Source: Candidatus Aenigmatarchaeota archaeon | Lineage (GTDB): Archaea; Aenigmatarchaeota; Aenigmatarchaeia; GW2011-AR5 | Direction of reading: 5' to 3' | DNA: 64,000 nt | Assembly (NCBI GenBank): GCA_016198685.1 | Contig: JACQID010000004.1 | Span: 37,160 to 101,159, forward strand | In this document: in pieces, positions 1,453 to 37,011 of the stretch | Layout of the letters: the number at the start of each line of letters is the position of its first letter | Numbering within the stretch: the first letter of the stretch is position 1 | The notes under the pieces: model-generated | What the model saw: the letters and a program-made list of their open reading frames with translations, nothing else | Told to the model about the DNA's origin: nothing | Databases searched by the model: none | Position numbers and translations under genes: made by a program

Positions 1453-1720
1453 ACTGACCCTTGTGTAAAACATGGCGAGATTCTTCTTAAAGCTGAATTC
1501 CTTGCGTTGTCGCGGAGCTATTGCGCTCACGAAGTGGAGGAGCCCCGTAAATCGTGCAGGACCTGAGTTTTCTTGATGGATACCTTTCGACGGGAAAGGA
1601 AACATTCTGTTTGGCGCACTTGATGTCCCATTATTACGTATTCATGCGGCACGGCGAAACGGAGTTCTGCAGAAGGTGCACGGCGCGAGGGATAGCTTAG
1701 TACTCCCCGTATATTAATTG

Positions 1721-2581
1721 TTATATGTTTCCGTACAAGGCGTCAAAATTTTTAGAGATGCTGTCCAATATATAGCCAAGTTTAGCCGCGGGTATCTGCG
1801 GCACGTACATCTCCATTACGGCGTCGTCTGGCATATGGTTTAAAAGCCGTCTAGATTCCCTTTTCGTAAGCATATCTCCTCTTTCATTTACTATCTGAAT
1901 AATGCCTTCCCGAATCGCGTTTTTCAATTTCTTGTCCCTTTGAAGAAATACGCGTCTTGTAAGACGATCTCTTGTGGTTGATGAACTATCATCCCTTTTC
2001 CCCATATATACTAATGCAGAACGAACACGCGGCTTAGGATAGAAGGATTCTGGGGGAATTGATTCATGAATGCGCACATCATAAATTGAACGAAGCATCA
2101 TAGCAAGTTTTGTATAGTCGTTGTCTTCAGAAGACGATATAATACGGGTGACAAAATCTAGTGGCAAGATAAGACTGGAGGCAGCAGGCTCCTGAACAAA
2201 AAGTTTCTGTAAAAGTGGTTCAGAAATCCGGTATGGCACATTCGACATGAATTTGTGGGCGGCTGGCCACGGGACGCGAAGAGCATCTCCTGTTATAAGA
2301 TAGAAATTGTGATAGGATGCCAACTCTTTCGACAACAATTCACTAAATCTTGGATCTTTTTCTATTGCATATAATGAATGTGGCATGTCGTTAAGGGCCA
2401 ATCTTGCAAGATTTCCGTATCCCGGTCCCACTTCGAGAACATTATCATAGGAAGTTATCCCGAGTAAATAGACAGTTTCTCTGGATACCGCCGAATCAAT
2501 AAGGAAGTGCTGGTCCAGATTGACCGTGTCTTGCGATATGCGATTGTATGCTATTTTATCGGAACCGTCTGGAATTGTCAT
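1721..2581 (-). CDS. ksgA: 16S rRNA (adenine1518/1519-N6)-dimethyltransferase KsgA/Dim1
   Basis: Motifs QHFLID, VLEVGPGYGNL, SNVPYRIS and PPESFYPKPRVRSALV align to the archaeal Dim1/KsgA signature. Confidence 0.7.
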   Translation of the reverse strand: MTIPDGSDKIAYNRISQDTVNLDQHFLIDSAVSRETVYLLGITSYDNVLEVGPGYGNLARLALNDMPHSLYAIEKDPRFSELLSKELASYHNFYLITGDALRVPWPAAHKFMSNVPYRISEPLLQKLFVQEPAASSLILPLDFVTRIISSSEDNDYTKLAMMLRSIYDVRIHESIPPESFYPKPRVRSALVYMGKRDDSSSTTRDRLTRRVFLQRDKKLKNAIREGIIQIVNERGDMLTKRESRRLLNHMPDDAVMEMYVPQIPAAKLGYILDSISKNFDALYGNI

Positions 2582-2598
2582 TTGTACACCGTATTATT

Positions 2599-3504
2599 CT
2601 AAAACATGGCATCGCCATAGCGACTCTGCCAGCTTCGCCCGCCGCCTCTTGGTTTGTGACTGCCGCCCCATATCCTTTTGGGCTTGGCAGAAGACAAATA
2701 TTCGAAAAATCTGGTAAATTCATAGCTTGTCAGGGCATCTACCCTTTTGTCCATATAGGGGTTTTCAGCTCGCGTTTCCTGAACATATCTATCTATTCCG
2801 GCGTCCTGTTCTTCGGTATACTGACTCAAAGCCGCACGAAAGGCATCTTGAAGGGGCCGTTTATTCTGGTCCCAAACGCACCTCAAAGTGAATAGTGGGA
2901 AATCCTTCTTCATAGACATTTTTTCCCGGGGATATAGTCCGACTAATACAGCGTTTGTTGAAGGTTCAGGATCGAAGCTTTCGCTCCCGACGTCCATTAA
3001 ATGTTCGGGACTGAAGTAGGCATTGGTGAGAAGTCCCAGTCTTGTATCTTTTCTTCTGCAGGCGGAATTCGCGAAATTTTCCCCTACCAACAGGAAGGAA
3101 GGAGCAGGTTTTCCGTTAAATAACTTCATCATTAGCGGCTCCGTTATGTTGAACGGGATATTGCCGACCATCTTATCGTGTTTCGGAAACCTTGCAGTTA
3201 TGGCATCTCCGTAAATCACGGAAACATTGGGGTGTTCCCTCTGCACATCTTCGAGGTATTGACGCATTCGAGCGTCCTTTTCTATAGCCACTACCCGGCC
3301 TGCGAACAAGGCAATTTCACGAGTAATTGACCCCTTTCCCGGGCCGATTTCTAATGCAGTTTCATAGGAATCTACATCGGCATGAAGAACCATCTGCCTC
3401 GGAATTTCACTATCTACTAGGAAGTGCTGATTTAGGACTTCTGTCTGGTTAGACGTTGTCATATGATAACCGCAATTAACATCCAGACAAACTTTATAAA
3501 CCAT
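2599..3504 (-). CDS. KsgA/Erm-family rRNA adenine N6-methyltransferase paralog (divergent, C-terminally extended)
   Basis: NQHFLVDS, LEIGPGKGSIT, GNIPFNIT, SESFDPEPSTNAVLV. Tandem with ksgA but only about 30% identical by eye. Extra ~60-aa Gly/Arg-rich C-terminal tail. Confidence 0.55.
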   Translation of the reverse strand: MVYKVCLDVNCGYHMTTSNQTEVLNQHFLVDSEIPRQMVLHADVDSYETALEIGPGKGSITREIALFAGRVVAIEKDARMRQYLEDVQREHPNVSVIYGDAITARFPKHDKMVGNIPFNITEPLMMKLFNGKPAPSFLLVGENFANSACRRKDTRLGLLTNAYFSPEHLMDVGSESFDPEPSTNAVLVGLYPREKMSMKKDFPLFTLRCVWDQNKRPLQDAFRAALSQYTEEQDAGIDRYVQETRAENPYMDKRVDALTSYEFTRFFEYLSSAKPKRIWGGSHKPRGGGRSWQSRYGDAMF

Positions 3505-3563
3505 AGTCTGGTATCTGCCTTCTGACCGCAGAGTCTTTTTATTTTTTCGGGATAACCAATTAT

Positions 3564-4250
3564 ATGCAAAAAATCGTTTCTCTCGTTTCCGGTGGCATGG
3601 ATTCCTGCACTACAATGGCGAAAGCAGCGATGGATGGAAATCATATATATCCATTATTTTTTAATTATGGCCAAAAATCCGCCAAAATGGAGGTTACAGC
3701 GGCCCAGAATTACATCAACGAATTGAGAAAACGGTCAGTGAATATAAATACGCTTCAAATAGTGACGATTTCGATGCCGTTTCTGAGAGTTGCGCTCACG
3801 GGAACAGGAAACATTACAAAGGCGGCGGACAAAGACTTTCATTCCATGGAATCGAAGAAGATAGATTGGGTGCCGGCCAGAAATGTAATTTTCCTTACTA
3901 TTGCCAGTTCATACTGCGAAATTGTAAAGGCGCGATGCATTACCATAGGCGCTTATAAGGAGGACGAAATGCCGCCGTATCCAGATTCGTCCCGGGAGTT
4001 TTTCGATTCCATGGAAATATCGTTGAGTAGAGGCATTTATGGCGACAAATTTGAAATAAGAACTCCGTTTTTGCATAATTTCAAATGGGATATGATAACA
4101 TTTTCGAAGGCTAACGGGCTTCCGGTTGATGTGACGTGGTCGTGCTATGAATCCGGAGAGAAGCATTGTGGGGCATGCAGAAATTGTCTCGACAGAAAGA
4201 ACGCCTTTGAAAAGGTCATGGCGCCGGACGTCACAGAGTATGTCGTCTGA
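3564..4250 (+). CDS. queC: 7-cyano-7-deazaguanine (preQ0) synthase QueC
   Basis: SGGMDS PP-loop, WVPARN, C-terminal zinc site CYESGEKHCGACRNC. Confidence 0.8.
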   Translation: MQKIVSLVSGGMDSCTTMAKAAMDGNHIYPLFFNYGQKSAKMEVTAAQNYINELRKRSVNINTLQIVTISMPFLRVALTGTGNITKAADKDFHSMESKKIDWVPARNVIFLTIASSYCEIVKARCITIGAYKEDEMPPYPDSSREFFDSMEISLSRGIYGDKFEIRTPFLHNFKWDMITFSKANGLPVDVTWSCYESGEKHCGACRNCLDRKNAFEKVMAPDVTEYVV

Positions 4251-5048
4251 TCAGTTTCTAAATTTTTTCCTGACAGAATAGACATCAAAGAGTGCTTGGG
4301 ATACCCATCCGAGAGTATATGCCGAGTTCCATGCAAGCATGTAGGCCGCTACATCTAAGCCTTTTTTTGATGCTATGTCGATTTCCTTATCGTAAAACGC
4401 ACCCAGACCCTTCATCAGGTTTTTTTCCACGCCAATGCGTTTTCCTACGCCATATCTCCATGCGCTCCGTAAATCTGTACAGGGTGTTAGTGGCGGATGA
4501 TTTATGGTAGCCTCTACTATGTAGTTTATAGGTATATCATTTATCTGAACCCGGCGATCGAATTCGGCATCTTCCACCCAGTGGATATCCCTGTCGTACA
4601 GATAGCCCCCTATATCACTTTTTATAGATCTTCGCATGGCCAGTGGAGGTTTATAGGCGGTGATTCTGTCCGATGTTGTGTATTCTCTCGCTCTGGCTAT
4701 TACATGACTAGGGTAACCCTTGGTTTGGAAAAGAACCCTGCCTTTTGCGAGTTTATAACCCTCGAGACCCTCGTAGAGCATCCGTATTGTTCCGGGATTG
4801 AATGTGCAATCCGAGTCTATAAGCAGAACCCTTTCGTTCGATGCCGCATGTATACCTTCATCAAGAGCCGCGCCCAAGTTCCTCTCGGCAAGTTCACATG
4901 AATCCCTGCCAGATTCTTTAACTATCCGTTTTATGTCTGGAGTGGGGCCATTCATAGAAACGATTACTTCCACATCTTCATCGATGCTCTGGAGACAGTC
5001 CCTTAAGCGCAGATCGTTGGCGACAGGAATTATGATCGATATGTCCAT
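4251..5048 (-). CDS. family-2 glycosyltransferase
   Basis: N-terminal IIIPVAND...DSDC (DxD) GT-A fold signature. Abuts the queC stop with zero gap. Confidence 0.6.
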   Translation of the reverse strand: MDISIIIPVANDLRLRDCLQSIDEDVEVIVSMNGPTPDIKRIVKESGRDSCELAERNLGAALDEGIHAASNERVLLIDSDCTFNPGTIRMLYEGLEGYKLAKGRVLFQTKGYPSHVIARAREYTTSDRITAYKPPLAMRRSIKSDIGGYLYDRDIHWVEDAEFDRRVQINDIPINYIVEATINHPPLTPCTDLRSAWRYGVGKRIGVEKNLMKGLGAFYDKEIDIASKKGLDVAAYMLAWNSAYTLGWVSQALFDVYSVRKKFRN

Positions 5049-5061
5049 TTAAAATTACTAT

Positions 5062-5739
5062 ATGTCAATGATTATATGCATGGTATTTAACAATACTGTT
5101 ATGGTTTTTGCCGCTCACCCGGACGACGAATCTATAGGATGCGGGGGTAGTATGGCCAAGTATGCTAGTCAGGGACGTCGACTGTTTCTGACATGCATGA
5201 CATCATCGAATTCGCAAGACGCGAGAGAGATACGCGAAACGGAAGCCCATAATGCTGCCAAAAAATTGGGTGTGGAAGAGTTGTTCTTTCTTCGAGAACC
5301 CGATAGATTTCTTGAGTATAATAGAAATGCATTGATACCCACAATCAACCTCCTAAGGCGAACGCGACCGGATTATATATTCATTCCGCATCCCGATGAG
5401 CATGATCGTGACCATAGGTCTGCATACGACATAAGTAGCGAAGCCGCATGGTTGTCTTCAAGTCCTTATATGCCGGAATTGGGCAAGCCCTGCGATATCA
5501 AAGGCATATTTATGTATGAAGTATGGACACCAATACAACACCCTCAATATTTTGAAGATATTACAGGATTTGTCCAACAAAAGAGGAGTGCCATAGAGTG
5601 CTATGGGTCGCAGATATCGCATGTCAATTATGCGGATGCGGCTATCGGCCTGAATAAATTTCGGGGCATAATGAGTGGTACAGGTGATTTTTCCGAGGCA
5701 TTTCTGATAAAGCGTTTAAGAGATGTCTGTATGAAATGA
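5062..5739 (+). CDS. LmbE/PIG-L family N-acetylglucosaminyl de-N-acetylase
   Basis: AHPDDESIGCGG zinc-binding motif near the N-terminus, HPDEHDRDH later. The true start may be the internal MVFNNTV or MVFAAHP. Confidence 0.65.
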   Translation: MSMIICMVFNNTVMVFAAHPDDESIGCGGSMAKYASQGRRLFLTCMTSSNSQDAREIRETEAHNAAKKLGVEELFFLREPDRFLEYNRNALIPTINLLRRTRPDYIFIPHPDEHDRDHRSAYDISSEAAWLSSSPYMPELGKPCDIKGIFMYEVWTPIQHPQYFEDITGFVQQKRSAIECYGSQISHVNYADAAIGLNKFRGIMSGTGDFSEAFLIKRLRDVCMK

Positions 5740-5743
5740 TGCC

Positions 5744-6445
5744 ATGAATGGCGTTACCTGGGTGAAGAATATACTGCATACGACATATACCAAAATTTCC
5801 AATGATTTTATAAGGTCGGACCTTTCGACAAACAAATACGCTCCTGCGGAGAATGTTATAAAGACCCTGAGAGAGTCTATACCCAGAATTTCGGCGTATC
5901 CCGACAGGAATTGGTCGTTATTGACGAAGAAAATAGAAAGTTATACGGGAATTTCGGACGATCATATGTTGACGACCAATGGTCTCAAAAAGGCAATAAT
6001 CTCATTGTAATGAGAAATTTCTCAAATCTTTTGGTCTGGCCGGTATGCGGCTGGGATACATCATAGCGCATCCTGAAACGGTAGACATGTTGCTGCGGTT
6101 GAGGCGCCATCGAGAGTCAATATGATGGTGCAACGCGCGGCCATAGCTTGCAATGATAGCGTTGATTATTATGCAAGCACATGGGTAAAAGCGAAAAAGA
6201 CGGTAAAGAGACTTGTAGATGAATTGACCGTTATTGGACTATATGCCGAACCTTCTGCAACGAATTTTGTGTATATCAGAACTTCTCGCGCGGAGGCAAT
6301 ATTTTACCATCTCTGGAAAAATAAAATCTCGGTGTTCCCTTCATGGGACTCCGAATTTATAGATGCGGATCGCGATGGGCTCAGAATAGTCGCTGGCCTG
6401 CCGGACGAGAATATCGCATTATTGAAAGCATTGAAAACCATGTAA
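5744..6445 (+). pseudogene. class I/II (HisC-like) aminotransferase remnant with frameshifts and an internal deletion
   Basis: N-terminal piece (frame of 5744) carries DLSTNKYAPAE. A middle piece 6009-6124 in a different frame carries the PLP-lysine motif KSFGLAGMRLGY. C-terminal piece 6122-6445 returns to the first frame. Total about 233 aa versus ~350 expected. Confidence 0.5.
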
Positions 6446-6457
6446 GGCGGCATGATT

Positions 6458-8158
6458 CTATTTCTCAATCATGAAATCACCGATGAAAAGGTAATCCATG
6501 CCGCTTCCATACATAGTGCGTAGTGCATCTCTGGGACTACATACAAGCGCCTCTCCTTTTACATTAAGGGAAGTGTTGACGACTACCGGAACACCCGTGA
6601 TTTCGCCCACATTTTCTATGAGTTTCCTATATCTGGGATTGCTTTTTTTATCAACCGTCTGAGGCCTAGTTGTACCATCTACGTGAACTACCGCAGGTAT
6701 ATCTCCGGCCCGATCTTTGCGGACATCAAATCCTAATATCATATATGGTGAAGAATGCGGTTGTTCCAGATAATTGGCCGCCGCTTCATCGAGCATCGAA
6801 GGGCCAAATGGCCTGTACCACTCTCTGTATTTTACTGCTTCATTCAGTCTGTTTTTCATATCAGGATTTCTTGGGTCGGCAAGTATGCTTCTGTTGCCCA
6901 ATGCTCTGGGTCCCCATTCCATGCCACCTTGAAACCAGCCTACTATTTTTCCGTTTGTGATAAGCTGCGCGGCCATGCCTTCGGGATCATCTTGGTATTT
7001 GAATGGTATCTTGAGCGATAGTAGCTCCCTTTCAATGGCTTCTTCTGAGAATGCCGGCCCCAGATAGACATTCGGAATAATTGTTCTGGCGTTGTATCCC
7101 AGTCGGGAATAGAGCTCTAGAGCGGCGCCCATACTGCATCCCGCGTCATTGGCAGCCGGTTGGATAAATATATCATCCACAATACCGGAACGCAATATCT
7201 TGCCGTTGGCGACGCAATTCAATCCCACACCCCCGGATAGTGACAGGTTCTTAGAGCCAGTTTCTTCAACAGCAATTTTGGCAAGATATAACATCATATC
7301 TTCGACTATGGCTTGTGCCGAAGCGGCGGCATCCATATAAACCGGGGTCATGATAGTTTCACGCGCGAATTTTTTCGCATCTTGGTCATAGATGAATGAA
7401 GGCGCATTGGCCCTTCCAAATCGGCTGGAGAATAATTTTACCCATTGCTCGCGTATTTGGGTTTCTTCATCGCTGACTCCGTCTTTTCCAAGTACTATTC
7501 CCGACCTGTTTATATTGGACCTATAGCTTTTGCCGTTAGTTGTGAAAGCGTCTGACAGTGACATTCTTCGTCTGCCGTATGCTGCAAGCCCCATAGTCTT
7601 GCCAGGTTCGTTGGGTTCTAAGCCCACGAATCCCGTCGAGGCCTCGTAAAAATATCCCAATGAATCAGGTATGCCTATTTTTCTGACTAATTTTATTTGG
7701 TTTCCGTCTCCATACCACAAGGAAGTGGAGACGTCTTCGCCCTGCCCGTCCGCCACTACAATGGCGCTTTTGTCGTAGCCCGAGACTCGGAATGCGCTTG
7801 AAGCATGCGACAAATGATGCTCGATGAAAGAAATCCGCGGAGATTTACCATAATCAAACATTGTTCTGGGGAATATTTGTTCTGGGAGAGTACTTTCATC
7901 TAGGCGGTCCGTCATGCCTCTAATTTTATAATGATACGGCCAGTCCCAGTAAACCGCTACATGATCTATTTCGTTGACTCCTATGCCGGCGACATCAAGG
8001 CAGTACTTGATGGAATTATGAGGCAATGTGTCGTATGAATACTTTTTTCTGATCAGTTTTTCCTCTTCTACCGCAGCTACAATTTTGCCGTCTTTTAGAA
8101 GCGTTGCCGACGCATCATGACCTCTATCGTTCCAGCCTGCAATACCAAGTATGTACAT
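6458..8158 (-). CDS. NodU/CmcH/TobZ-family carbamoyltransferase (Kae1-like fold)
   Basis: MYILGIAGWNDRGHDASATLL...IVAAVEEEK N-terminus and HHLSHASSAF hallmark. 566 aa. Start set at MYILGIAG. Confidence 0.7.
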   Translation of the reverse strand: MYILGIAGWNDRGHDASATLLKDGKIVAAVEEEKLIRKKYSYDTLPHNSIKYCLDVAGIGVNEIDHVAVYWDWPYHYKIRGMTDRLDESTLPEQIFPRTMFDYGKSPRISFIEHHLSHASSAFRVSGYDKSAIVVADGQGEDVSTSLWYGDGNQIKLVRKIGIPDSLGYFYEASTGFVGLEPNEPGKTMGLAAYGRRRMSLSDAFTTNGKSYRSNINRSGIVLGKDGVSDEETQIREQWVKLFSSRFGRANAPSFIYDQDAKKFARETIMTPVYMDAAASAQAIVEDMMLYLAKIAVEETGSKNLSLSGGVGLNCVANGKILRSGIVDDIFIQPAANDAGCSMGAALELYSRLGYNARTIIPNVYLGPAFSEEAIERELLSLKIPFKYQDDPEGMAAQLITNGKIVGWFQGGMEWGPRALGNRSILADPRNPDMKNRLNEAVKYREWYRPFGPSMLDEAAANYLEQPHSSPYMILGFDVRKDRAGDIPAVVHVDGTTRPQTVDKKSNPRYRKLIENVGEITGVPVVVNTSLNVKGEALVCSPRDALRTMYGSGMDYLFIGDFMIEK

Positions 8159-8206
8159 ACAAATAACACGATTTTTTATTCTTAAACATCTTCGCATATT
8201 GTCATT

Positions 8207-8980
8207 ATGGGGAAAGGTGTTGATGCATCGTTTTGGGATAAAGTGGGTTCGGAGATAGGATACGACTTTACATCATTGCGCTTATACCGCGAAGGCGAAA
8301 ATTGTGAGGAAAAATTCAGGCGACTTGTCACGAATAATATCTGCCAAAACAGCGTAGCAATTGACATAGGGGTCGCTGACGGCTCGTTTGATATTAGTTT
8401 ATCCGATAAGCTGAAATTTATCGTAGGCATTGACACTTCTACAAAAATGATTGAAAAAGCGCGCCAAAAACTCGCGATTTCCGGATCAAGAAACGTATTC
8501 TTATCCATCTCGGACGGTAGGGAATTACCGTTTGCTGATGCACAATTTGACATTTCGATTAGTAGGAGAGGACCCAGTACTTCCAGCATGGAATTTCTTC
8601 TGGAAACCAAGCGTATTTTGAACAGGGGCGGGATATTTCTAGAGATAACTATAGGTGAGAAAGACAAAGAAAATATAAAGAGAATATTCGGAAGAGGGCA
8701 GAATTATACGGCGCTGATGGCAGGCAGAAGCGAAATGTTAAGAAAAAAGGCCATGCTGCAAAAAGCGGGTTTCGTGGACATAGAAGTGAGTGAAATGAAT
8801 TCGGCGGAATTCTACGAGTCCGTGGAGGATATTATGTTTCTCCTTCGCAACACCCCGATAATTCCCGACTTTAACAGGATTAATGACATGGAGTATATTC
8901 ATAAACTGATGAAAGACGCAAAAACGGAGAGGGGAATACGCACGAATAGCCATCGAATTATCATATCGGCAAGGAAATGA
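8207..8980 (+). CDS. class I SAM-dependent methyltransferase
   Basis: Motif I AIDIGVADGSFD, motif post-I, Rossmann MTase layout. Confidence 0.55.
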   Translation: MGKGVDASFWDKVGSEIGYDFTSLRLYREGENCEEKFRRLVTNNICQNSVAIDIGVADGSFDISLSDKLKFIVGIDTSTKMIEKARQKLAISGSRNVFLSISDGRELPFADAQFDISISRRGPSTSSMEFLLETKRILNRGGIFLEITIGEKDKENIKRIFGRGQNYTALMAGRSEMLRKKAMLQKAGFVDIEVSEMNSAEFYESVEDIMFLLRNTPIIPDFNRINDMEYIHKLMKDAKTERGIRTNSHRIIISARK

Positions 8981-8981
8981 T

Positions 8982-9740
8982 TCATCTGCCCCTATCCGAC
9001 CCCCATAGAAGAATATGTAATCTCGGCGTGAATCCGTATCCAGATGCTTTGCACGTCTCCACGATGAACCGGGATCTGCGGAGTACATCCTCACGTGTCG
9101 TGCCCTCCGGCATTAATAGGACCTTGTTTTTTTGGATTTTGTAACGCGCGACAATATCGTTGATTCCGTAGATATCGTTCTCAGAGCAAACTACAAATTT
9201 AAACCATGCGGTATTAGCATTTGAAAAAAAGGACAGAGCTGCGGCATTTTCTCTCATAATAGCCCTGTTTCCAGAGGATTCGAGTTTGGGCGAAACATTC
9301 CATTGTTTTATGCTGGCAGAAAAGAGCTCATTTGGGACTATGGTGCCGTTCGTTTCCGTTTCGATATAGTAGCCTAATTCATTAACACAGTTTAGGAATT
9401 TCAAGAGCTCCGGATCTTTTTGCTGCAGCAATGGTTCCCCGCCTGTAAGTACTATGCGTTTACAGTCAAATTTCTCTATAGTTTGTATTAACTCTTCGGA
9501 TAGCATATCGATACTTTCTTTGAAGGGGTGATAGAGTTTGGTATCCTCTCTGGGGGCGGAAGAATTGTCCGTAGTAGCCTTCTCAACGTTCTTTAGCATT
9601 TGTTTGCTGAAAAGCCATGTATATTTTGTGTCGCACCACCAGCAATGTAAATTGCATGAAGAAAGCCGGATAAAAATCGAAGGAATGCCGAGAGAGCGAC
9701 CTTCGCCTTGCACGGAATAGAATACTTCATTTACCTTCAT
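8982..9740 (-). CDS. queE: 7-carboxy-7-deazaguanine synthase QueE (radical SAM)
   Basis: FYSVQGEG and CNLHCWWCDT cluster typical of QueE. Start set at MKVNEVF. Confidence 0.75.
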   Translation of the reverse strand: MKVNEVFYSVQGEGRSLGIPSIFIRLSSCNLHCWWCDTKYTWLFSKQMLKNVEKATTDNSSAPREDTKLYHPFKESIDMLSEELIQTIEKFDCKRIVLTGGEPLLQQKDPELLKFLNCVNELGYYIETETNGTIVPNELFSASIKQWNVSPKLESSGNRAIMRENAAALSFFSNANTAWFKFVVCSENDIYGINDIVARYKIQKNKVLLMPEGTTREDVLRRSRFIVETCKASGYGFTPRLHILLWGSDRGR

Positions 9741-10116
9741 TGTCTTTCCAGTATTCCGCATATTGATTTTGGGATTCCCAAACCCTTACCCTCTCCAGAT
9801 TTTTGATGCCCTTGTCCTCCAGTTTATGGAATAATATTTTCGAGACATTCTCGGCCGTAGCATTGTTTCCCAGAATGTTATTAAGATGATTGTGGTCAAA
9901 TTCGCTCAGACATGATCGAAGCCCACTTTTTAATTCTATGAAGTCAGAATTTTCTAAAATCCCATTGGAATCTGTAGTTTGACCTGTTACGAACACTTCC
10001 ACTTTATACGTATGTCCGTGGAGGTTTCTGCATTTCCCAGCATGCCCAGGTATGCTATGTGACGCGTCAAAATGGTCCTCTATGCGCAATCGAAACATTA
10101 TAACGTCCCCTCCCAT
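9727..10116 (-). CDS. queD: 6-carboxy-5,6,7,8-tetrahydropterin synthase QueD
   Basis: CRNLHGHTYKVEV (C-x4-HGH zinc motif). 129 aa. Overlaps queE and folE2 as in an operon. Confidence 0.75.
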   Translation of the reverse strand: MGGDVIMFRLRIEDHFDASHSIPGHAGKCRNLHGHTYKVEVFVTGQTTDSNGILENSDFIELKSGLRSCLSEFDHNHLNNILGNNATAENVSKILFHKLEDKGIKNLERVRVWESQNQYAEYWKDNEGK

Positions 10117-10862
10117 TGCGAAGAGATGTTATGATCATGGATTGACTCGAAGCTTATGCACTTGATATGACATTGCCTTCGCGGATATTCGGCCTTCAGT
10201 TCAGCCGCGCATTTACGTACAACGTCCTCCACAAACATGGGGTTTTGGTGGATTTTTTCCACAACCGATTTTTCTTGCGGGCGTTTCAGCAAACTATATG
10301 TCGGTGAACTAAAGCACGAATTGCATATATCAATAAGATAAGCGTGATTTATTGGGGCCCCCGTAGTGTCCAATCGTAGTTGCAATTCACCGCGTTGGTT
10401 ATGCGTCAGCCCACCAGTCAATTCTTTTGAACATGGGCATGCTAAGATGCCTTTCAATGAAAGCTCTATGGTTCTTTGCTTTGTTCTCGTATCATAAGTA
10501 GCGCAAACGTTTACTATAGCAGTTTCCTTTCCCCCAGAAACGTTTCTTTTATGAAATGGCATTATGCCAGAAACCTTCGTTTCGCAATGATAGTGGTGTT
10601 TTTCCAGTATGCTCTTTGCAAGGGTCTCCGCGACGTCTTCAATGGAATGCATATTTGAACTCAGGTTGTGTATAGATTCAATGAACCTGCTCATGTGGGC
10701 ACCCCTTTGATGAGCCGGCAAAGTGACGTATGCGTCAATGGACATTACGCATTGATATGCATCTGAGTCACTGCCTACAATTATGAGTTTTTTTACGTTT
10801 TCTACCCCCACGCGGGATAGCTCTAATGGATTTGCGGGTACAGAATTTTGAACATCTATCAT
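10098..10862 (-). CDS. folE2: GTP cyclohydrolase FolE2/MptA (type IB)
   Basis: DUF198/FolE2 signature ...QRGAHMSRF... About 250 aa. First gene of the folE2-queD-queE operon. Confidence 0.7.
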   Translation of the reverse strand: MIDVQNSVPANPLELSRVGVENVKKLIIVGSDSDAYQCVMSIDAYVTLPAHQRGAHMSRFIESIHNLSSNMHSIEDVAETLAKSILEKHHYHCETKVSGIMPFHKRNVSGGKETAIVNVCATYDTRTKQRTIELSLKGILACPCSKELTGGLTHNQRGELQLRLDTTGAPINHAYLIDICNSCFSSPTYSLLKRPQEKSVVEKIHQNPMFVEDVVRKCAAELKAEYPRRQCHIKCISFESIHDHNISSQWEGTL

Positions 10863-10984
10863 TCTTTATCTATGTAGTTCAACAATTAAAATCTTCTATT
10901 CAGCAATATATTGCAAATTCGAGAAAATAACCACTTCGGCATCAATGATAAGTTTCGAGAGGTACTTTTTGGCGGGGTGACTCA

Positions 10985-11105
10985 TGCACCATCCGGGATT
11001 TGAACCCGGATCACGAGCTGTTTCCATGCTATTTTAATACAGCATACGATGCAGCGAAGTTGCGGGCATTGGGAAGCTCGAATCCTGCCATTAGACTAAT
11101 GGTGC
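10985..11105 (-). tRNA. tRNA-Gly(CCC) with a ~50-nt intron at the canonical 37/38 position
   Basis: Hand-folded. Acceptor GCACCAU/AUGGUGC, D stem GUCU/GGAU, anticodon stem CGAGC/GCUCG, loop UUCCCA|intron|A, T arm CCGGG-UUCAAAU-CCCGG, discriminator A, no encoded CCA. Confidence 0.5.
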
Positions 11106-11132
11106 TTTTCTGATAAGTTTTCTAGAAAATAC

Positions 11133-11456
11133 TTAAGTGTGATTTCTAGTCCTAAGCAGGCGGATCCTTTTCGAGAATAAAATTTTTTCAAGAACTTTTG
11201 CATTATAATCCGGCTGGCCATCAGAGTTGAAAATGCCAGAATAAAAAGCTCTTACGGTCCTATATTGCTCATGTCTTGGAACTTTGGCATTCGATGCCAT
11301 AGGCTCGATCTCCAATGTATAGCCTATATGGTCCTTAGGCATTTCCCTTGACACTACAAAATAATAGACAGCTATTTTGTTTTCTCCTTCGCTTGTCCAT
11401 ACTACTTCATGAACGGTACCCCTGCGTCTGACATAGATCGGCCCATCCGTAGACAA
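11133..11456 (-). CDS. hypothetical protein
   Basis: 107-aa ORF; the reading frame stays open upstream without an ATG, so it may start at a non-ATG codon. Confidence 0.3.
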   Translation of the reverse strand: MSTDGPIYVRRRGTVHEVVWTSEGENKIAVYYFVVSREMPKDHIGYTLEIEPMASNAKVPRHEQYRTVRAFYSGIFNSDGQPDYNAKVLEKILFSKRIRLLRTRNHT

Positions 11457-11637
11457 GAAATATGATTCATGGTTGTCTATGACAGTATAGAAATCGGAGC
11501 TATAGGCTCTTGCCCGAAAGCCGTTACGCCTGAGTCTTCATGCAAATTCAGACGGCATTATGAAGGTAACTTTTAGAATAATGCATATTCCAGGAGAATA
11601 AAATAATATCATATGCGATTAGTTCCTTAAGAAAGAA

Positions 11638-11760
11638 TCAGCCTTTGCCGTATTCTGCGGCGCATTTTTTGCAGACATACGTCTTCGTGCCGTAAAATCT
11701 GTGCTCATTCATATCCTTTTCGTCAAATTCGCCGCCGCAGGAATCGCATTCTTTGCGCAT
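11638..11760 (-). CDS. small zinc-ribbon protein (40 aa)
   Basis: MRKECDSCGGEFDEKDMNEHRFYGTKTYVCKKCAAEYGKG: two CxxC pairs. Translated by hand; absent from the ORF track because it is under 60 aa. Confidence 0.35.
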   Translation of the reverse strand: MRKECDSCGGEFDEKDMNEHRFYGTKTYVCKKCAAEYGKG

Positions 11761-11839
11761 CCTACAAAATTAGCCTTGCCGCTTTATATTCTTGTCGCCC
11801 GCTTGCAACATTATAAACGGATATGCGGATAGTAGGCCT

Positions 11840-13162
11840 ATGCGGCTCAGAAGAACTGTGGGTGTCTGGGGCGCGACATCCGTAGGAATTGCTAATATCA
11901 TTGGCGCAGGCATATTCGTACTGAGCGGTGTCGCCGCAGGCATTGCCGGGCCATCCGTTATATTATCATTCTTTATCGCAGGCTTCATAGCGTTGATGAC
12001 CGCGCTCTCGGCAGCCGAACTTTCATCGCTAATAACCGAAACAGGTGCCAGTTATGCCTTTACCAAGAAAGCTTTCGGCAGGTTTTGGAGTTTCCTCGTA
12101 GGCTGGTTCAAGTATTTTGATTATACTGTCGGTGCCGCCGCTGTATCCGTAGGCTTTGCAGCGTATTTTGCCGCGTTTTTCGGAATGAACGGGCCCACTG
12201 CCTTGGCATTATCGGCCGTTGGCTTGCCGGTCGCGCTTACTATTCTGAATCTGATTGGCGTACGTGAAACCGCCCGGGCTACTGCAGCGATGGTTTTTGT
12301 TAAAGTCTTTGCGCTAGTCCTGCTTGTGATGCTCGGGATTTTTTATCTTGGGCAGAATTTCAATGCCTCTCATTATACGCCGTTTTTTGTCAATGGCTTG
12401 GGCGGCACACTTGAAGCTGCTGCTGTAGTATTCTTCGCGTTCCTTGGGTTCAATACCGTGAGCATGATGTCCGAGGAAACGAAAAATCCTGAGAAGACTA
12501 TTCCGCGTGCATTAATGATAGCTTTTTTCGTCTCATTCATACTTTATATGGCAATAGCGGTGGTGGAAATCGGAGTTCTGGACTGGAACACCATGGGATC
12601 AACAGCATCTCCCTTGATAGAACTTGCGGCAGCGTTGACGTCTAACCGGATGTTCATGGACTTTATTGCATTCTCTGCCATGGTAGCAACAGGTTCTGTA
12701 GCCCTGAGCTCAATGATAGGTGGCACGAGAACGAGCTATGTGATGGGGCGCGATGGCCTTCTTCCGCGCCAGTTCGAATCTGTCAGCAAACGGTTCGGAA
12801 CGCCTTATATTTCCATACTTGTCAGCGGCATGATAATTACAGTACTTGCAGGACTTTTCGCTGATAATATAGCACTCATAGTTTCAATCGTGAATTTCGG
12901 AAGCCTCTTCACTTACATGTTTACTCATTTATCGTTAATAAGATTGCGCCACCTCATGCCTAAGGCAAAGCGTCATTTCAGAGTTCCCGCTTATCCAGTC
13001 GTGCCTATTATCGGAATAATAAGTTGCCTTTTTTTCATGTTTTATCTCAGTGTTGATGCCAAGGTGGCAGCAATGTTATGGGCAGCTATAGGGATTGTTG
13101 CATATGCGGTTTTTCACACTAAAAGAAGCAAAGTTCCTCTAGGATTTTTAGTCAAGGATTAG
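11840..13162 (+). CDS. APC-family amino acid permease
   Basis: 12-TM hydrophobic profile, GAGIFVL motif. Start set at MRLRRTVGVW. Ends with a TAG stop. Confidence 0.7.
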   Translation: MRLRRTVGVWGATSVGIANIIGAGIFVLSGVAAGIAGPSVILSFFIAGFIALMTALSAAELSSLITETGASYAFTKKAFGRFWSFLVGWFKYFDYTVGAAAVSVGFAAYFAAFFGMNGPTALALSAVGLPVALTILNLIGVRETARATAAMVFVKVFALVLLVMLGIFYLGQNFNASHYTPFFVNGLGGTLEAAAVVFFAFLGFNTVSMMSEETKNPEKTIPRALMIAFFVSFILYMAIAVVEIGVLDWNTMGSTASPLIELAAALTSNRMFMDFIAFSAMVATGSVALSSMIGGTRTSYVMGRDGLLPRQFESVSKRFGTPYISILVSGMIITVLAGLFADNIALIVSIVNFGSLFTYMFTHLSLIRLRHLMPKAKRHFRVPAYPVVPIIGIISCLFFMFYLSVDAKVAAMLWAAIGIVAYAVFHTKRSKVPLGFLVKD

Positions 13163-13188
13163 GGTATTGTTTCTTAGAATAAATTTAA

Positions 13189-13261
13189 TGGGCCCGCTGT
13201 GATTTGAACACAGGCCTCGGCCACCCCAAGGCCGGATCCTACCAAGCTAGACTACAGGCCC
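13189..13261 (-). tRNA. tRNA-Pro(GGG)
   Basis: Hand-folded. Acceptor GGGCCUG/CGGGCCC, anticodon stem CGGCC/GGCCG with loop UUGGGGU, T arm CUGUG-UUCAAAU-CACAG, discriminator A. Confidence 0.7.
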
Positions 13262-13422
13262 CGCATTTTGTATAATTAGTCCGGCAGCAAAATATAAGTA
13301 TGGATGAAATAACCTGCGTACTTGGGAGGAAGATAGGATTCACGAAGGAAAATGGCTACATATCGTGATGCGCCATCCTGAGATGGAAGGCAAGGAGACG
13401 GAAATAGCGGAAACTCTCAAGA

Positions 13423-14349: not shown

Positions 14350-14446
14350 AACGTTGCAGTTTAGCCCTTTTCGTGTTTTAGCGGAAAAGATAGTGCAGGC
14401 GTTTGCGATTGATATAATTGATTTACAATAATTAAGTTAGGCGCCC

Positions 14447-36942: not shown

Positions 36943-37011
36943 GAAAATATAGATAATGAAAGTCTTATAAAATAAAGAAATTCTTATAAAGATTTGGGTT
37001 ATAGATGACTG

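What the first reader, a model, noticed from the sequence alone, without database searches (positions are those of the whole stretch)
3564..10862. preQ0 (7-deazaguanine) pathway split by an inserted block of sugar-tailoring enzymes: candidate undescribed 7-deazapurine glycoconjugate or modification system
What the sequence shows: queC (3564-4250) and the folE2-queD-queE operon (8982-10862) are separated by five tightly packed genes. Gaps range from 0 to 50 bp and include convergent and divergent abutments. The five genes are a GT2 glycosyltransferase, an LmbE/PIG-L de-N-acetylase (AHPDDE), a decayed aminotransferase, a NodU/CmcH/TobZ-type carbamoyltransferase (HHLSHASSAF) and a class I SAM methyltransferase.

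Established knowledge: FolE2, QueD, QueE and QueC together convert GTP to preQ0, which in archaea normally feeds archaeosine in tRNA. The GT plus LmbE-deacetylase pair is the classical two-step route for installing a glucosamine. Examples are MshA/MshB, BshA/BshB, PIG-A/PIG-L, and aminoglycoside paromamine deacetylases. TobZ-type enzymes O-carbamoylate sugars.

Inference: the block could attach a hexosamine to a preQ0-derived acceptor and then carbamoylate or methylate it. The product would be either a small-molecule deazapurine nucleoside or a hypermodified 7-deazaguanine in tRNA or DNA. Glycosylated queuosine in eukaryotic tRNA and Dpd 7-deazaguanines in DNA are precedents, but I know of no described archaeal system with this gene set.
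Basis: partly seen in the sequence, partly recalled or inferred. Interest (0 to 1): 0.75.

Follow-up and report, generated by a model that had tools for sequence, protein, structure and literature searches.

The report
Deazaguanine amino-sugar antibiotic-like gene cluster
A tiny symbiotic archaeon carries a compact, widely shared gene cluster that most likely builds a small molecule: a guanine look-alike base joined to a carbamoylated amino sugar, using sugar enzymes related to those of the antibiotic streptothricin, with a ribosomal-RNA methylase beside it that may protect the producer.

Summary
queC, a GT2 glycosyltransferase, a PIG-L/LmbE deacetylase, a broken aminotransferase, a TobZ-like carbamoyltransferase (CT), a class I methyltransferase and queE-queD-folE2 lie at the stated coordinates, 0-13 bp apart.

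This is not a que operon split by an insertion. In 33 non-redundant loci from DPANN archaea, CPR bacteria, Gammaproteobacteria and Bacillota, this GT2 subfamily sits with CT (32), QueC (32), PIG-L (27) and QueE (27), in shuffled gene orders.

RrnaAD genes (19 loci) and ABC exporters (7 loci) never occur together, and two other loci carry MFS exporters inside the cluster.

The GT2 belongs to the small subfamily found in the streptothricin clusters of known producers. There it is inferred to be StnG, the guanidino-N-glycosyltransferase, paired with the deacetylase StnI.

Best reading: a biosynthetic cluster for an exported N-glycosylated 7-deazaguanine, by inference carrying a carbamoylated amino sugar and one methyl group. 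It may target the ribosome, with rRNA methylation as self-protection. The huimycin cluster is a functional analogue, but its GT belongs to an unrelated family.

No transglycosylase gene or viral copy supports a nucleic-acid modification. I rate it a new variant of a known kind. No product is known.

The parts
2599..3504 (-). Rrn2: a divergent KsgA/Erm-family (RrnaAD) adenine-N6 methyltransferase specific to this cluster. Proposed self-resistance rRNA methyltransferase.
   Evidence: PF00398 at 119.5 bits. Scores 134 on the ksgA model and 114 on the Erm model, below both cut-offs. Motifs EIGPGKG and NIPF are present. It forms a discrete DPANN clade of 13 clusters at 166-657 bits, after which scores drop to 118 bits or less for ordinary KsgA. 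Members lie in or beside the cluster in L001, L007, L013, L034, L039, L041, L043, L053, L093, L094 and L095.
3564..4250 (+). QueC-like 7-cyano-7-deazaguanine synthase (last step to preQ0, or a related amide-forming step)
   Evidence: PF06508 at 158 bits, full length. TIGR00364 scores 132, below its cut-off of 150. The SGGMDS PP-loop and the C-terminal Cys cluster are present. Colinear with solved QueC structures 2PG3 and 3BL5.
4251..5048 (-). StnG-like GT2 (GT-A) glycosyltransferase. Proposed to N-glycosylate the guanidine-like N2 of the deazaguanine with a HexNAc.
   Evidence: PF00535. AlphaFold2 model with pLDDT 94 and a GT-A fold. The DSDC and W-x-ED motifs are among 43 positions conserved in at least 90% of 86 family members, which include the GT2s of streptothricin-producer loci. 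The subfamily has only 170 clusters at E <= 1e-30 among 1.84 billion representatives.
5062..5739 (+). PIG-L/LmbE-family de-N-acetylase. Proposed to convert the HexNAc conjugate to the free amino sugar.
   Evidence: PF02585 at 97 bits. Best NCBIfam match is BshB1 at 110 bits. Best PDB matches are BshB1 and LmbE-related proteins. AHPDDE motif present. Found next to this GT2 subfamily in 27 of 33 que-type loci and 49 of 53 other loci.
5744..6445 (+). Pseudogene of a class I/II (HisC-like) PLP aminotransferase
   Evidence: tblastn with the intact 357-aa L001 orthologue matches residues 8-87, then 211-240 in another frame, then 241-352. About 123 residues are deleted. Weak HisC hits.
6458..8197 (-). 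TobZ/NodU-type O-carbamoyltransferase (the database annotation starts 13 codons downstream)
   Evidence: PF02543 + PF16861. 403 bits, full length, to TobZ structure 3VEN. Present in 32 of 33 que-type loci.
8207..8980 (+). Class I SAM methyltransferase, archaeal cluster type. Proposed to methylate the base or the sugar.
   Evidence: PF13649/PF08241. Orthologues occur in the DPANN clusters L001, L013, L004, L011, L014, L034, L043 and L053 at 134-257 bits, and are distinct from the Bacillota cluster methyltransferase. No PDB relative at E <= 1e-6.
8982..9761 (-). QueE, radical-SAM 7-carboxy-7-deazaguanine synthase
   Evidence: PF04055. QueE NCBIfam models score 82-103 bits. CNLHCWWC motif present.
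9727..10116 (-). QueD, 6-carboxytetrahydropterin synthase
   Evidence: PF01242 at 103 bits. TIGR03367 scores 88.8 against a cut-off of 89.25.
10098..10862 (-). GTP cyclohydrolase IB family (FolE2/MptA type); first step from GTP
   Evidence: PF02649 at 210 bits. MptA model 186 bits and FolE2 model 158 bits, both below cut-off.
1721..2581 (-). KsgA/Dim1-like methyltransferase in tandem with Rrn2. Probably the housekeeping enzyme; membership of the cluster is uncertain.
   Evidence: ksgA model 164 bits against Erm 114. Best PDB match is archaeal KsgA at 118 bits, full length. NVPY motif. A similar KsgA-like gene also flanks the cluster in L007, L008, L039 and L095.

Best explanation
The window carries a biosynthetic gene cluster (about 2599-10862) for a small, probably exported, N-glycosylated 7-deazaguanine metabolite of the streptothricin/huimycin type.

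Proposed steps:
1. FolE2, QueD, QueE and QueC make preQ0, or a close 7-substituted 7-deazaguanine, from GTP. The families are shown; the chemistry follows from established knowledge of these families.
2. The StnG-like GT2 transfers a HexNAc from a UDP-sugar to the guanidine-like exocyclic N2 of the base. This is inferred from homology to the GT2 of streptothricin clusters and from the N2-GlcNAc of huimycin.
3. The PIG-L enzyme removes the N-acetyl group (inferred).
4. The TobZ-like enzyme O-carbamoylates a sugar hydroxyl (inferred).
5. The class I methyltransferase methylates the base or the sugar (inferred).
6. In relatives, the freed amine or the nitrile is elaborated further by an aminotransferase, a BpsA_C-type aminopropyltransferase-like enzyme or a DUF5591 protein. 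In this genome the aminotransferase is a pseudogene.

The cluster-specific KsgA/Erm-like methyltransferase (Rrn2) most likely protects the producer's own ribosome by methylating an rRNA adenine. Exporters would fill that role in other lineages. This implies a ribosome-targeting compound. The last point is a hypothesis.
For: 1. Family assignments for all nine genes.
2. Conserved co-occurrence despite rearrangement. The identical cluster is in L001 and L013 (Aenigmatarchaeota). Shuffled versions are in L004/L011/L014, L007/L039, L034/L043/L053/L093/L094, CPR loci L016-L042, Gammaproteobacteria L023/L024/L028, and Bacillota L010, L026, L031, L032, L036-L038, L040, L046. Counts over 33 non-redundant loci: CT 32, QueC 32, PIG-L 27, QueE 27, QueD 24, RrnaAD 19, BpsA_C 18.
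3. The GT2 is one tight subfamily, with 43 positions conserved in at least 90% of 86 sequences and only 170 clusters at E <= 1e-30. The subfamily includes the GT2 next to PIG-L in loci of streptothricin producers: L052 is strain fd2-tb and L091 is strain TP-A0356. Those loci also carry TauD, a PLP enzyme, a stand-alone A domain and a GNAT. In streptothricin biosynthesis StnG glycosylates a guanidine nitrogen and a deacetylase follows.
4. The huimycin cluster combines the preQ0 genes with an O-methyltransferase and an N2-GlcNAc transferase, with a carbamoyltransferase gene adjacent.
5. Signs of a small molecule: an ABC exporter inside the cluster in 7 loci, MFS transporters inside L032 and L036 and beside L093, L015 and L020, and a DDE transposase next to L010.
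6. RrnaAD and ABC exporters are mutually exclusive (19 loci, 7 loci, none with both). Rrn2 is embedded as CT-Rrn2-PIG-L-GT2 in several archaeal operons. All three further Rrn2-clade members looked up lie with cluster genes: L093 and L094 inside full clusters, L095 near a QueC at a contig end.
7. Streptothricin's streptolidine acts as a guanine mimetic pairing with 16S rRNA C1054, and its carbamoylated sugar contacts A1196. A true guanine analogue on the same kind of sugar is therefore chemically plausible, and an adenine methyltransferase is a plausible resistance factor.
Against: - No product is known for any member. I found no paper describing the cluster, so every chemical step after preQ0 is inferred.
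- HuiG of huimycin is a PF13439 (GT-B) enzyme, not a GT2. The huimycin parallel is therefore analogy only.
- I could not obtain the StnG sequence itself. The equation of the GT2 in the Streptomyces loci with StnG rests on strain identity and neighbouring genes.
- The window's QueC and QueD fall below the NCBIfam equivalog cut-offs. Relatives have long QueC variants of 385-436 aa, and QueC-like enzymes can form amides instead of nitriles. The aglycone may therefore not be preQ0.
- The aminotransferase is decayed here, so the pathway may be truncated or inactive in this organism.
- Secondary-metabolite clusters are unusual in DPANN and CPR genomes.
- Rrn2 could be a tailoring enzyme or a target duplicate rather than a resistance rRNA methyltransferase.
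- Whether the genome has an arcTGT elsewhere could not be checked; only 64 kb was visible.
Confidence: 0.6

Rival explanations
1. The cluster hypermodifies a nucleic acid. preQ0 would be inserted into tRNA (as for archaeosine), rRNA or DNA, then glycosylated, deacetylated, carbamoylated and methylated in place. Rrn2 would act as an RNA-directed partner enzyme.
For: The preQ0 pathway normally feeds archaeosine and queuosine. Rrn2 and a KsgA-like gene, both RNA-directed families, are tightly linked to the cluster. A DUF5591 domain, which is archaeosine-synthase related, occurs in the Bacillota versions. DPANN and CPR genomes rarely carry secondary metabolism (my own knowledge).
Against: No TGT/DpdA family was listed among the Pfam-annotated genes of the related loci that had precomputed annotation, and none was found among the ten largest ORFs outside the cluster in the window. 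The loci from the genome scan were screened only with a query set that contained no TGT, so they were not tested. ABC or MFS exporters are embedded in many versions. The closest characterised homologues all act on small molecules: TobZ on aminoglycosides, BshB1 on GlcNAc-malate, and the GT2/PIG-L pair in streptothricin loci. The GT2 has no viral relatives.
Confidence: 0.12
2. The cluster makes an intracellular housekeeping metabolite rather than an antibiotic. Examples would be a cofactor, or a low-molecular-weight amine or thiol carrier built like bacillithiol or mycothiol (GT, then LmbE deacetylase, then ligation) on a deazaguanine scaffold. Rrn2 and the transporters would be unrelated to self-resistance.
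For: The PIG-L enzyme's best curated match is BshB1. The cluster is retained in many reduced DPANN and CPR genomes, which suggests a benefit to the cell itself. BpsA_C polyamine-synthase-like genes occur in 18 of 33 loci.
Against: The phyletic distribution is patchy, with transposase or TnpB-like neighbours. The region has the most atypical tetranucleotide composition in the window. Exporters and RrnaAD alternate, which is the pattern of self-protection genes. Homologous modules in Streptomyces make antibiotics.
Confidence: 0.15
3. The juxtaposition has no functional meaning. The GT2/PIG-L/CT/methyltransferase genes would serve surface glycan or S-layer glycosylation and merely happen to sit between que genes.
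For: GT2 enzymes are mostly involved in polysaccharide or lipid-linked glycan synthesis. There are weak NCBIfam hits to AglJ and EpsD.
Against: 32 of 33 loci with this GT2 subfamily near a que gene also carry CT and QueC, across two domains of life and many gene orders. Starting instead from CT or from Rrn2 recovers the same partners. The GT2 model shows a compact 265-residue GT-A domain followed by C-terminal helices; membrane association was not tested.
Confidence: 0.03
4. In this particular genome the cluster is a decaying, non-functional remnant of a horizontally acquired cluster.
For: The aminotransferase has an internal deletion of about 370 bp and a frameshift. The cluster region has the most deviant tetranucleotide usage in the window.
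Against: The other nine genes are full length and colinear with their orthologues, with catalytic motifs intact. Many relatives lack the aminotransferase altogether and have BpsA_C instead, so it is an accessory gene.
Confidence: 0.1

Closest known systems
Streptothricin sugar module: StnG guanidino-N-glycosyltransferase, StnI N-acetyl-gulosamine deacetylase, StnQ carbamoyltransferase (Streptomyces)
   Same: The GT2 is from the same subfamily: 35-39% identity over the full length, with shared DSDC, W-x-ED and H184 positions. It has the same adjacent PIG-L deacetylase, and a NodU/TobZ-type carbamoyltransferase lies in some Streptomyces loci (L048, L049, L062, L063, L068). The logic is the same: HexNAc on a guanidine-type nitrogen, then deacetylation and carbamoylation.
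   Different: The aglycone genes differ: preQ0 genes here, versus TauD/PLP streptolidine genes and NRPS beta-lysine genes there. There is no GNAT resistance gene here; instead there is a KsgA/Erm-like methyltransferase or an exporter. The hosts are DPANN, CPR and Bacillota rather than actinomycetes. Calling the Streptomyces GT2 'StnG' is inferred from strain identity and gene context, not from the published sequence.
Huimycin biosynthetic cluster (Kutzneria albida; huiB-G), and dapiramicin-type preQ0 N-glycosides
   Same: A full preQ0 pathway clustered with a SAM methyltransferase and a glycosyltransferase that puts GlcNAc on N2 of the deazaguanine. A carbamoyltransferase gene (KALB_4074) lies immediately downstream.
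   Different: The huimycin family GT is PF13439 (GT-B fold), not GT2. There is no PIG-L deacetylase, so huimycin keeps its N-acetyl group. It uses GTP cyclohydrolase I (FolE) rather than FolE2. It has a LuxR regulator and no rRNA methyltransferase. The parallel is functional, not homology of the tailoring enzymes.
TobZ (tobramycin/kanamycin 6''-O-carbamoyltransferase)
   Same: Full-length colinear match at 403 bits, with the same two-domain architecture (PF02543 + PF16861). TobZ acts on an amino-sugar antibiotic.
   Different: The substrate here is unknown, and the cluster context is not that of a 2-deoxystreptamine aminoglycoside.
Erm and KsgA rRNA adenine-N6 methyltransferases (Erm provides self-resistance in macrolide producers)
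   Same: Same Pfam family (PF00398), with the SAM-binding motif and an N-I-P-F catalytic motif and a full-length two-domain match. Like resistance methyltransferases in producers, it sits inside an antibiotic-like cluster.
   Different: It scores below the curated cut-offs of both the KsgA and Erm models and forms its own small clade. The target nucleotide is unknown, and a resistance function has not been shown.
Archaeosine/queuosine preQ0 pathway (FolE2-QueD-QueE-QueC feeding arcTGT)
   Same: The same four enzyme families that make preQ0 from GTP.
   Different: No transglycosylase or ArcS gene was seen in the cluster or among the window ORFs tested. The que genes are embedded with sugar-tailoring and transport or resistance genes. 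QueC and QueD are divergent and below the equivalog cut-offs.

Membership tests
preQ0 (7-cyano-7-deazaguanine) biosynthesis pathway | All four enzyme families present: GTP cyclohydrolase I (FolE or FolE2), QueD, QueE, QueC | tested here: met
   PF02649, PF01242, PF04055 with QueE NCBIfam hits, and PF06508.
preQ0 (7-cyano-7-deazaguanine) biosynthesis pathway | Each protein reaches the curated equivalog score | tested here: not met
   QueC TIGR00364 132 against 150.3. QueD TIGR03367 88.8 against 89.25. QueE models 82-103 against 200-300. FolE2 158 against 215. These are divergent members, as is common in DPANN, so whether the product is the nitrile or an amide is not settled.
preQ0 (7-cyano-7-deazaguanine) biosynthesis pathway | Catalytic motifs: QueC PP-loop SGGxDS and Zn-binding cysteines; QueE CX3CX2C | tested here: met
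   SGGMDS and C-x-HCGACRNC in QueC. CNLHCWWC in QueE.
StnG-like GT2 N-glycosyltransferase subfamily (streptothricin type) | GT-A fold with a DxD motif and subfamily-specific conserved positions shared with the GT2 of streptothricin clusters | tested here: met
   AlphaFold2 model with pLDDT 94 and a GT-A fold. 43 positions conserved in at least 90% of 86 sequences, including those of the Streptomyces streptothricin-producer loci.
StnG-like GT2 N-glycosyltransferase subfamily (streptothricin type) | Adjacent PIG-L/LmbE deacetylase partner | tested here: met
   27 of 33 que-type loci and 49 of 53 other loci. In the window the two genes are 13 bp apart and divergent.
StnG-like GT2 N-glycosyltransferase subfamily (streptothricin type) | Transfers a HexNAc to a guanidine or imine nitrogen | not testable with these tools
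   Needs an enzyme assay. Reported for StnG in the literature.
Streptothricin biosynthetic cluster | Streptolidine genes (TauD-type arginine hydroxylase, PLP cyclase) and beta-lysine NRPS or stand-alone A domain | tested here: not met
   None of these is in the window cluster. They are present in L049, L089 and L091.
Huimycin-type preQ0 glycoside cluster | preQ0 genes clustered with a SAM methyltransferase and a glycosyltransferase | tested here: met
Huimycin-type preQ0 glycoside cluster | Glycosyltransferase of the HuiG type (PF13439, GT-B) | tested here: not met
   The window GT is PF00535, GT-A. The huimycin family GT is PF13439.
NodU/CmcH/TobZ O-carbamoyltransferases | Kae1-like N-terminal domain plus YrdC-like C-terminal domain, colinear with TobZ | tested here: met
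   PF02543 165 bits + PF16861 236 bits. 3VEN at 403 bits over residues 14-579.
KsgA/Dim1 (16S A1518/A1519 dimethyltransferase), tested for Rrn2 (2599-3504) | Reaches the curated KsgA equivalog score and groups with housekeeping KsgA | tested here: not met
   134 against 171. It forms a separate clade from the KsgA-like genes of the same loci. Bit scores drop sharply from the Rrn2 clade to ordinary KsgA.
Erm 23S rRNA A2058 methyltransferases, tested for Rrn2 | Reaches the curated Erm score | tested here: not met
   114 against 212.
Self-resistance gene of an antibiotic cluster, tested for Rrn2 | Embedded in the cluster, and alternates with other protection devices (exporters) across homologous clusters | tested here: met
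   Order CT-Rrn2-PIG-L-GT2 in L034, L041, L043, L053 and L094. RrnaAD in 19 loci, ABC exporter in 7, both in none.
Self-resistance gene of an antibiotic cluster, tested for Rrn2 | Confers resistance to the cluster's product by modifying its target | not testable with these tools
   Needs the compound, plus methylation mapping and MIC assays.
Nucleic-acid 7-deazaguanine modification systems (arcTGT/ArcS, bacterial TGT, Dpd) | A transglycosylase (TGT/DpdA) encoded with or near the que genes | tested here: not met
   No TGT/DpdA family was listed in the Pfam-annotated related loci or found among the ten largest ORFs outside the cluster in the window. Smaller window ORFs, the genome-scan loci and the rest of the 338-kb contig were not tested for TGT.

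The most novel reading that the evidence does not exclude
DPANN archaea and CPR bacteria, which are ultra-small episymbionts thought to have almost no secondary metabolism, and some Bacillota, make a previously unknown class of ribosome-targeting antibiotic. It would be a 'deaza-streptothricin', in which a real guanine analogue (7-deazaguanine) replaces the guanine-mimicking streptolidine on a carbamoylated amino sugar. The producers would protect themselves with a new clade of rRNA adenine-N6 methyltransferase, possibly acting at the A1196-equivalent position that contacts the carbamoyl sugar of streptothricin.
Probability: 0.3. Interest if true: 0.85.

Novelty: new variant of a known kind. 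Interest (0 to 1): 0.68.

Why it matters
- It would add a new structural class to the 7-deazapurine natural products and to the streptothricin-like amino-sugar antibiotics. It would also link two pathways, preQ0 synthesis and the StnG/StnI/StnQ-type sugar module, that the held literature does not connect.
- It would be one of very few specialised-metabolite clusters in DPANN and CPR organisms. That would suggest chemical warfare or host manipulation by episymbionts.
- The cluster-specific KsgA/Erm-like methyltransferase could be an unrecognised type of rRNA-methylation resistance determinant.
- The idea can be tested now, because the same cluster occurs in culturable Bacillus, Paenibacillus and Metabacillus strains.

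Tried and rejected
- Exact look-up of the window's 579-aa CT found nothing, because the database protein starts 13 codons later.
- I expected HuiG of huimycin to be the GT2 homologue. This was rejected: the huimycin family GT is PF13439, a GT-B enzyme.
- I tried to read Guo et al. 2015 on StnG/StnI. The paper is not held, so StnG identity rests on citing papers and on strain and context evidence.
- The sigma-70 promoter and terminator scan of 1500-11500 was at shuffle level and is not applicable to an archaeon.
- The viral-contig scan with the GT2 profile found no relatives.
- The PDB sequence search and Foldseek search for the GT2 gave only generic GT-A hits at TM <= 0.63. The methyltransferase has no PDB relative at E <= 1e-6.
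- The cluster-associated hypothetical proteins h246 and h190 have no clear Pfam family and are not detectably related to the Bacillota DUF5591 protein.
- The window MFS (14447-15748) is only 25% identical to the MFS beside the L093 cluster, so I did not count it as part of the cluster.
- GC content does not mark the cluster as foreign (0.443 against 0.449). Only tetranucleotide usage does.
- One Pfam call failed on wrong coordinates.

Full report
**Source and observation.** The window comes from a Candidatus Aenigmarchaeota metagenome-assembled genome: the CT protein is HY364_00695 on a 337,873-bp contig.
- queC 3564-4250 (+)
- a GT2 glycosyltransferase 4251-5048 (-)
- a PIG-L/LmbE deacetylase 5062-5739 (+)
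- two HisC-like aminotransferase fragments, 5744-6010 and 6122-6445 (+)
- a two-domain NodU/TobZ carbamoyltransferase (CT) 6458-8197 (-)
- a class I SAM methyltransferase 8207-8980 (+)
- queE 8982-9761, queD 9727-10116 and a GCHY-1 (FolE2/MptA-type) cyclohydrolase 10098-10862 (all -)

The quoted motifs AHPDDE and HHLSHASSAF are present, and gaps between intact genes are 0-13 bp or overlaps. tblastn with the intact 357-aa orthologue from L001 shows the aminotransferase is a pseudogene with an internal deletion of about 123 codons and a frameshift.

**The association is conserved, not an insertion.**
- Starting from CT homologues, an Aenigmatarchaeota relative (L001; CT 58% identical) has the identical nine-gene cluster with an intact aminotransferase.
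- Groundwater archaeal contigs (L004, L011) have a shuffled version: GT2 | QueC-MT | BpsA_C-CT-QueE.
- L007 has QueD-QueE-GCHY1-CT-rSAM/SPASM | MT-QueC-hyp-GT2-PIG-L, inserted between the EF-2 and EF-1alpha genes.
- Starting from the GT2, Metabacillus idriensis (Bacillota) has BpsA_C-CT-DUF5591-GT2-MT-PIG-L-ABC exporter (three genes)-QueC-QueD-QueE-FolE, next to a DDE transposase.
- A scan of 185,579 species genomes with a GT2 profile returned 80 loci. I annotated them by phmmer with the cluster proteins.
- Among 33 non-redundant loci with this GT2 and a que gene, CT occurs in 32, QueC in 32, PIG-L in 27, QueE in 27, QueD in 24, an RrnaAD methyltransferase in 19, BpsA_C in 18, a GTP cyclohydrolase in 17, a methyltransferase in 16 and ABC permeases in 7.
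- These loci come from DPANN archaea, CPR bacteria, Gammaproteobacteria, a Dehalococcoidales genome and Bacillota.

The functional link it proposed is strongly supported.

**A missed component.** The two genes upstream of queC are both RrnaAD (KsgA/Erm family) methyltransferases.
- The distal one (1721-2581) looks like housekeeping KsgA: 164 bits on the ksgA model against 114 on the Erm model, an NVPY motif, and a full-length match to archaeal KsgA structures.
- The proximal one (2599-3504, 'Rrn2') is divergent. It scores 134 on ksgA and 114 on Erm, has an NIPF motif, and matches the PDB only over its N-terminal domain.
- Rrn2 has orthologues beside or inside the cluster in L001, L013, L007, L039, L034, L041, L043 and L053. 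In the last four the order is CT-Rrn2-PIG-L-GT2 on one strand.
- A database search from Rrn2 shows a discrete clade of 13 clusters at 166-657 bits, followed by a drop to 118 bits or less for ordinary KsgA.
- All three further members I looked up lie with cluster genes: L093 and L094 inside full clusters, and L095 near a QueC at a contig end.
- In CPR bacteria, Gammaproteobacteria and a Nocardia locus, other RrnaAD genes sit next to the cluster.
- RrnaAD and ABC exporters never co-occur (19 loci, 7 loci, none with both). Two loci with neither have an MFS gene inside the cluster (L032, L036).

This alternation is what one expects of alternative self-protection genes.

**What the sugar enzymes resemble.**
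- CT is colinear with TobZ, the aminoglycoside O-carbamoyltransferase, at 403 bits.
- PIG-L is closest to BshB1 and LmbE-related proteins.
- The GT2 model is confident (pLDDT 94) and has a GT-A fold, with no close solved relative.
- The GT2 subfamily is small: 170 clusters at E <= 1e-30 among 1.84 billion representatives.
- Besides the que-type loci, the subfamily's other large group is about 45 Streptomyces loci in which the GT2 lies near a PIG-L gene.
- These include S. yangpuensis fd2-tb, a published streptothricin producer whose 2,226,054-bp scaffold is L052, and strain TP-A0356, from which a streptothricin cluster was mined. S. lavendulae is also among them.
- Their neighbours are a TauD dioxygenase, a PLP enzyme, an oxidoreductase-epimerase, an ATP-grasp enzyme, a stand-alone adenylation domain and a GNAT. 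A second Streptomyces type adds NRPS modules, a CT and an MFS transporter.
- According to papers citing Guo et al. 2015, StnG glycosylates the imine nitrogen of a guanidine in streptothricin biosynthesis, an N-acetyl-gulosamine deacetylase follows, and stnQ encodes the carbamoyltransferase.
- All 86 GT2s share 43 positions conserved in at least 90% of sequences, including DSDC and W-x-ED.

I therefore infer, but could not prove with the StnG sequence itself, that the window's GT2/PIG-L/CT trio is the counterpart of StnG/StnI/StnQ.

**Known deazapurine precedent.** The huimycin cluster of Kutzneria albida combines QueC, QueD, QueE and GTP cyclohydrolase I with HuiC (O6-methylation of preQ0) and HuiG (N2-GlcNAc). 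A carbamoyltransferase gene lies directly downstream, although it is not needed for huimycin in a heterologous host. However, the huimycin family GT is PF13439, a GT-B enzyme, so it is an analogue and not a homologue of the window GT2. A 2026 preprint mined about 2 million bacterial genomes for deazapurine clusters. Its main text does not mention carbamoyltransferases, PIG-L enzymes or CPR, and its only mention of archaea is an archaeal TGT search model. Searches combining QueC, carbamoyltransferase, glycosyltransferase and deazaguanine; deazaguanine and DPANN; and streptothricin and deazaguanine found nothing relevant.

**Proposed mechanism.**
- Shown: the enzyme families, their conserved clustering, and the intact catalytic motifs.
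- Inferred: GTP is converted to preQ0 or a close relative. The GT2 N-glycosylates the guanidine-like N2 with a HexNAc. PIG-L removes the acetyl group. CT carbamoylates a sugar hydroxyl. The methyltransferase adds a methyl group.
- In other lineages an aminotransferase, a BpsA_C-type enzyme or a DUF5591 protein elaborates the molecule further.
- Exporters indicate that the product is released.

In streptothricin F, the streptolidine acts as a guanine mimetic that pairs with 16S rRNA C1054, and the carbamoylated gulosamine hydrogen-bonds A1196. A genuine guanine analogue on the same type of sugar is thus a plausible ribosome ligand, and an adenine-N6 methyltransferase is a plausible self-resistance factor. 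This last step is a hypothesis.

**Evidence against a nucleic-acid modification.**
- No TGT/DpdA family was listed among the Pfam-annotated genes of the related loci that had precomputed annotation.
- None was found among the ten largest ORFs outside the cluster in the window, which are housekeeping genes such as PGK, ThrRS, Elp3, GluRS and H+-PPase.
- The GT2 has no relatives in 2.9 million viral contigs.

The rest of the 338-kb contig, the smaller window ORFs and the genome-scan loci were not checked for TGT, so arcTGT elsewhere is not excluded.

**Origin.** GC content of the cluster equals that of the window (0.443 against 0.449). Its tetranucleotide usage is the most deviant of all 8.3-kb stretches: L1 distance 0.194, against 0.083-0.144 for stretches that do not overlap the cluster. 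The patchy distribution across two domains and the mobile-element genes beside some copies also suggest horizontal spread of the whole cluster, que genes included.

**Caveats.**
- QueC and QueD score below the curated equivalog cut-offs. Relatives have QueC variants of 385-436 aa, and QueC-like enzymes can form amides. The aglycone is therefore uncertain.
- The aminotransferase pseudogene may mean a shortened pathway in this organism.
- Rrn2 could instead be a tailoring enzyme or a drug-insensitive duplicate of KsgA.

**Verdict.** It is best filed as a new variant of a known kind: a deazapurine and amino-sugar antibiotic-type biosynthetic cluster with a candidate rRNA-methyltransferase resistance gene. 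It is unusual for its hosts (DPANN and CPR) and for combining two pathways not previously linked.

Noticed in passing
window 1721-3504 (-): Two RrnaAD genes lie in tandem, a KsgA-like gene and the divergent Rrn2. A KsgA-like gene also flanks the cluster in L007, L039, L008 and L095. This suggests Rrn2 arose by duplication of ksgA and that the cluster was assembled beside it. Alternatively, KsgA may itself be linked to the product's mode of action.
   Followed up: partly
window 10985-11105 (-): A 121-nt tRNA found by Rfam but missed by ARAGORN lies directly beside folE2. It appears to contain an intron of about 48 nt after the anticodon loop. By eye it may be tRNA-Gly(CCC). tRNA genes are common integration sites.
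   Followed up: partly
window 2001-10264: This stretch has the most deviant tetranucleotide composition of the whole 64-kb window, although its GC content is average. That is consistent with an older horizontal acquisition of the whole cluster.
   Followed up: partly
L007 6224-17397; L039: In these Woesearchaeota-like contigs the whole cluster, bracketed by Rrn2 and a KsgA-like gene, sits between the EF-2 and EF-1alpha genes of the conserved rpoA-NusA-S12-S7-EF-2 region.
   Followed up: no
L007 13422-14630; L093 3904-5061; L094 10428-11687; L095 84-1394: QueC homologues in Woese- and Nanoarchaeota-type clusters are 385-436 aa, with an N-terminal extension of about 170 aa that has no Pfam match. 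They may perform chemistry other than nitrile formation, for example amide ligation as in roseomycin.
   Followed up: no
L012 4409-10807: A bacterial contig with a more distant GT2 (35% identity) carries a different cluster: an NpmA-like 16S rRNA methyltransferase, two PIG-L genes, GTP cyclohydrolase II, an Acetyltransf_6/FemAB-like pair and the GT2. This is another amino-sugar cluster paired with an rRNA methyltransferase.
   Followed up: no
L021 (Nocardia sp. CC227C) 9992-14623; L044; L070 (Desulfobacter): GT2-CT-PIG-L modules occur with no que gene within 10 kb, joined by an RrnaAD gene in L021 and by BpsA_C and DUF5591 genes in L044 and L070. The sugar module may serve other aglycones, or the que genes may lie further away.
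   Followed up: no
L001 6393-6857; L010 3495-5105: Mobile-element genes lie next to two versions of the cluster: a faint Cas12f1/TnpB-like hit in L001 and a DDE transposase in L010.
   Followed up: no
window 14447-15748 (+) and 11792-13162 (+): An MFS transporter and an amino-acid permease lie within 5 kb of the cluster. The MFS is only 25% identical to the MFS adjacent to the L093 cluster, so a role as exporter is unproven.
   Followed up: partly
window 35416-37026 (-): An Elp3-like radical-SAM/GNAT protein, a tRNA-modification family, is encoded elsewhere in the window. It is unrelated to the cluster.
   Followed up: no
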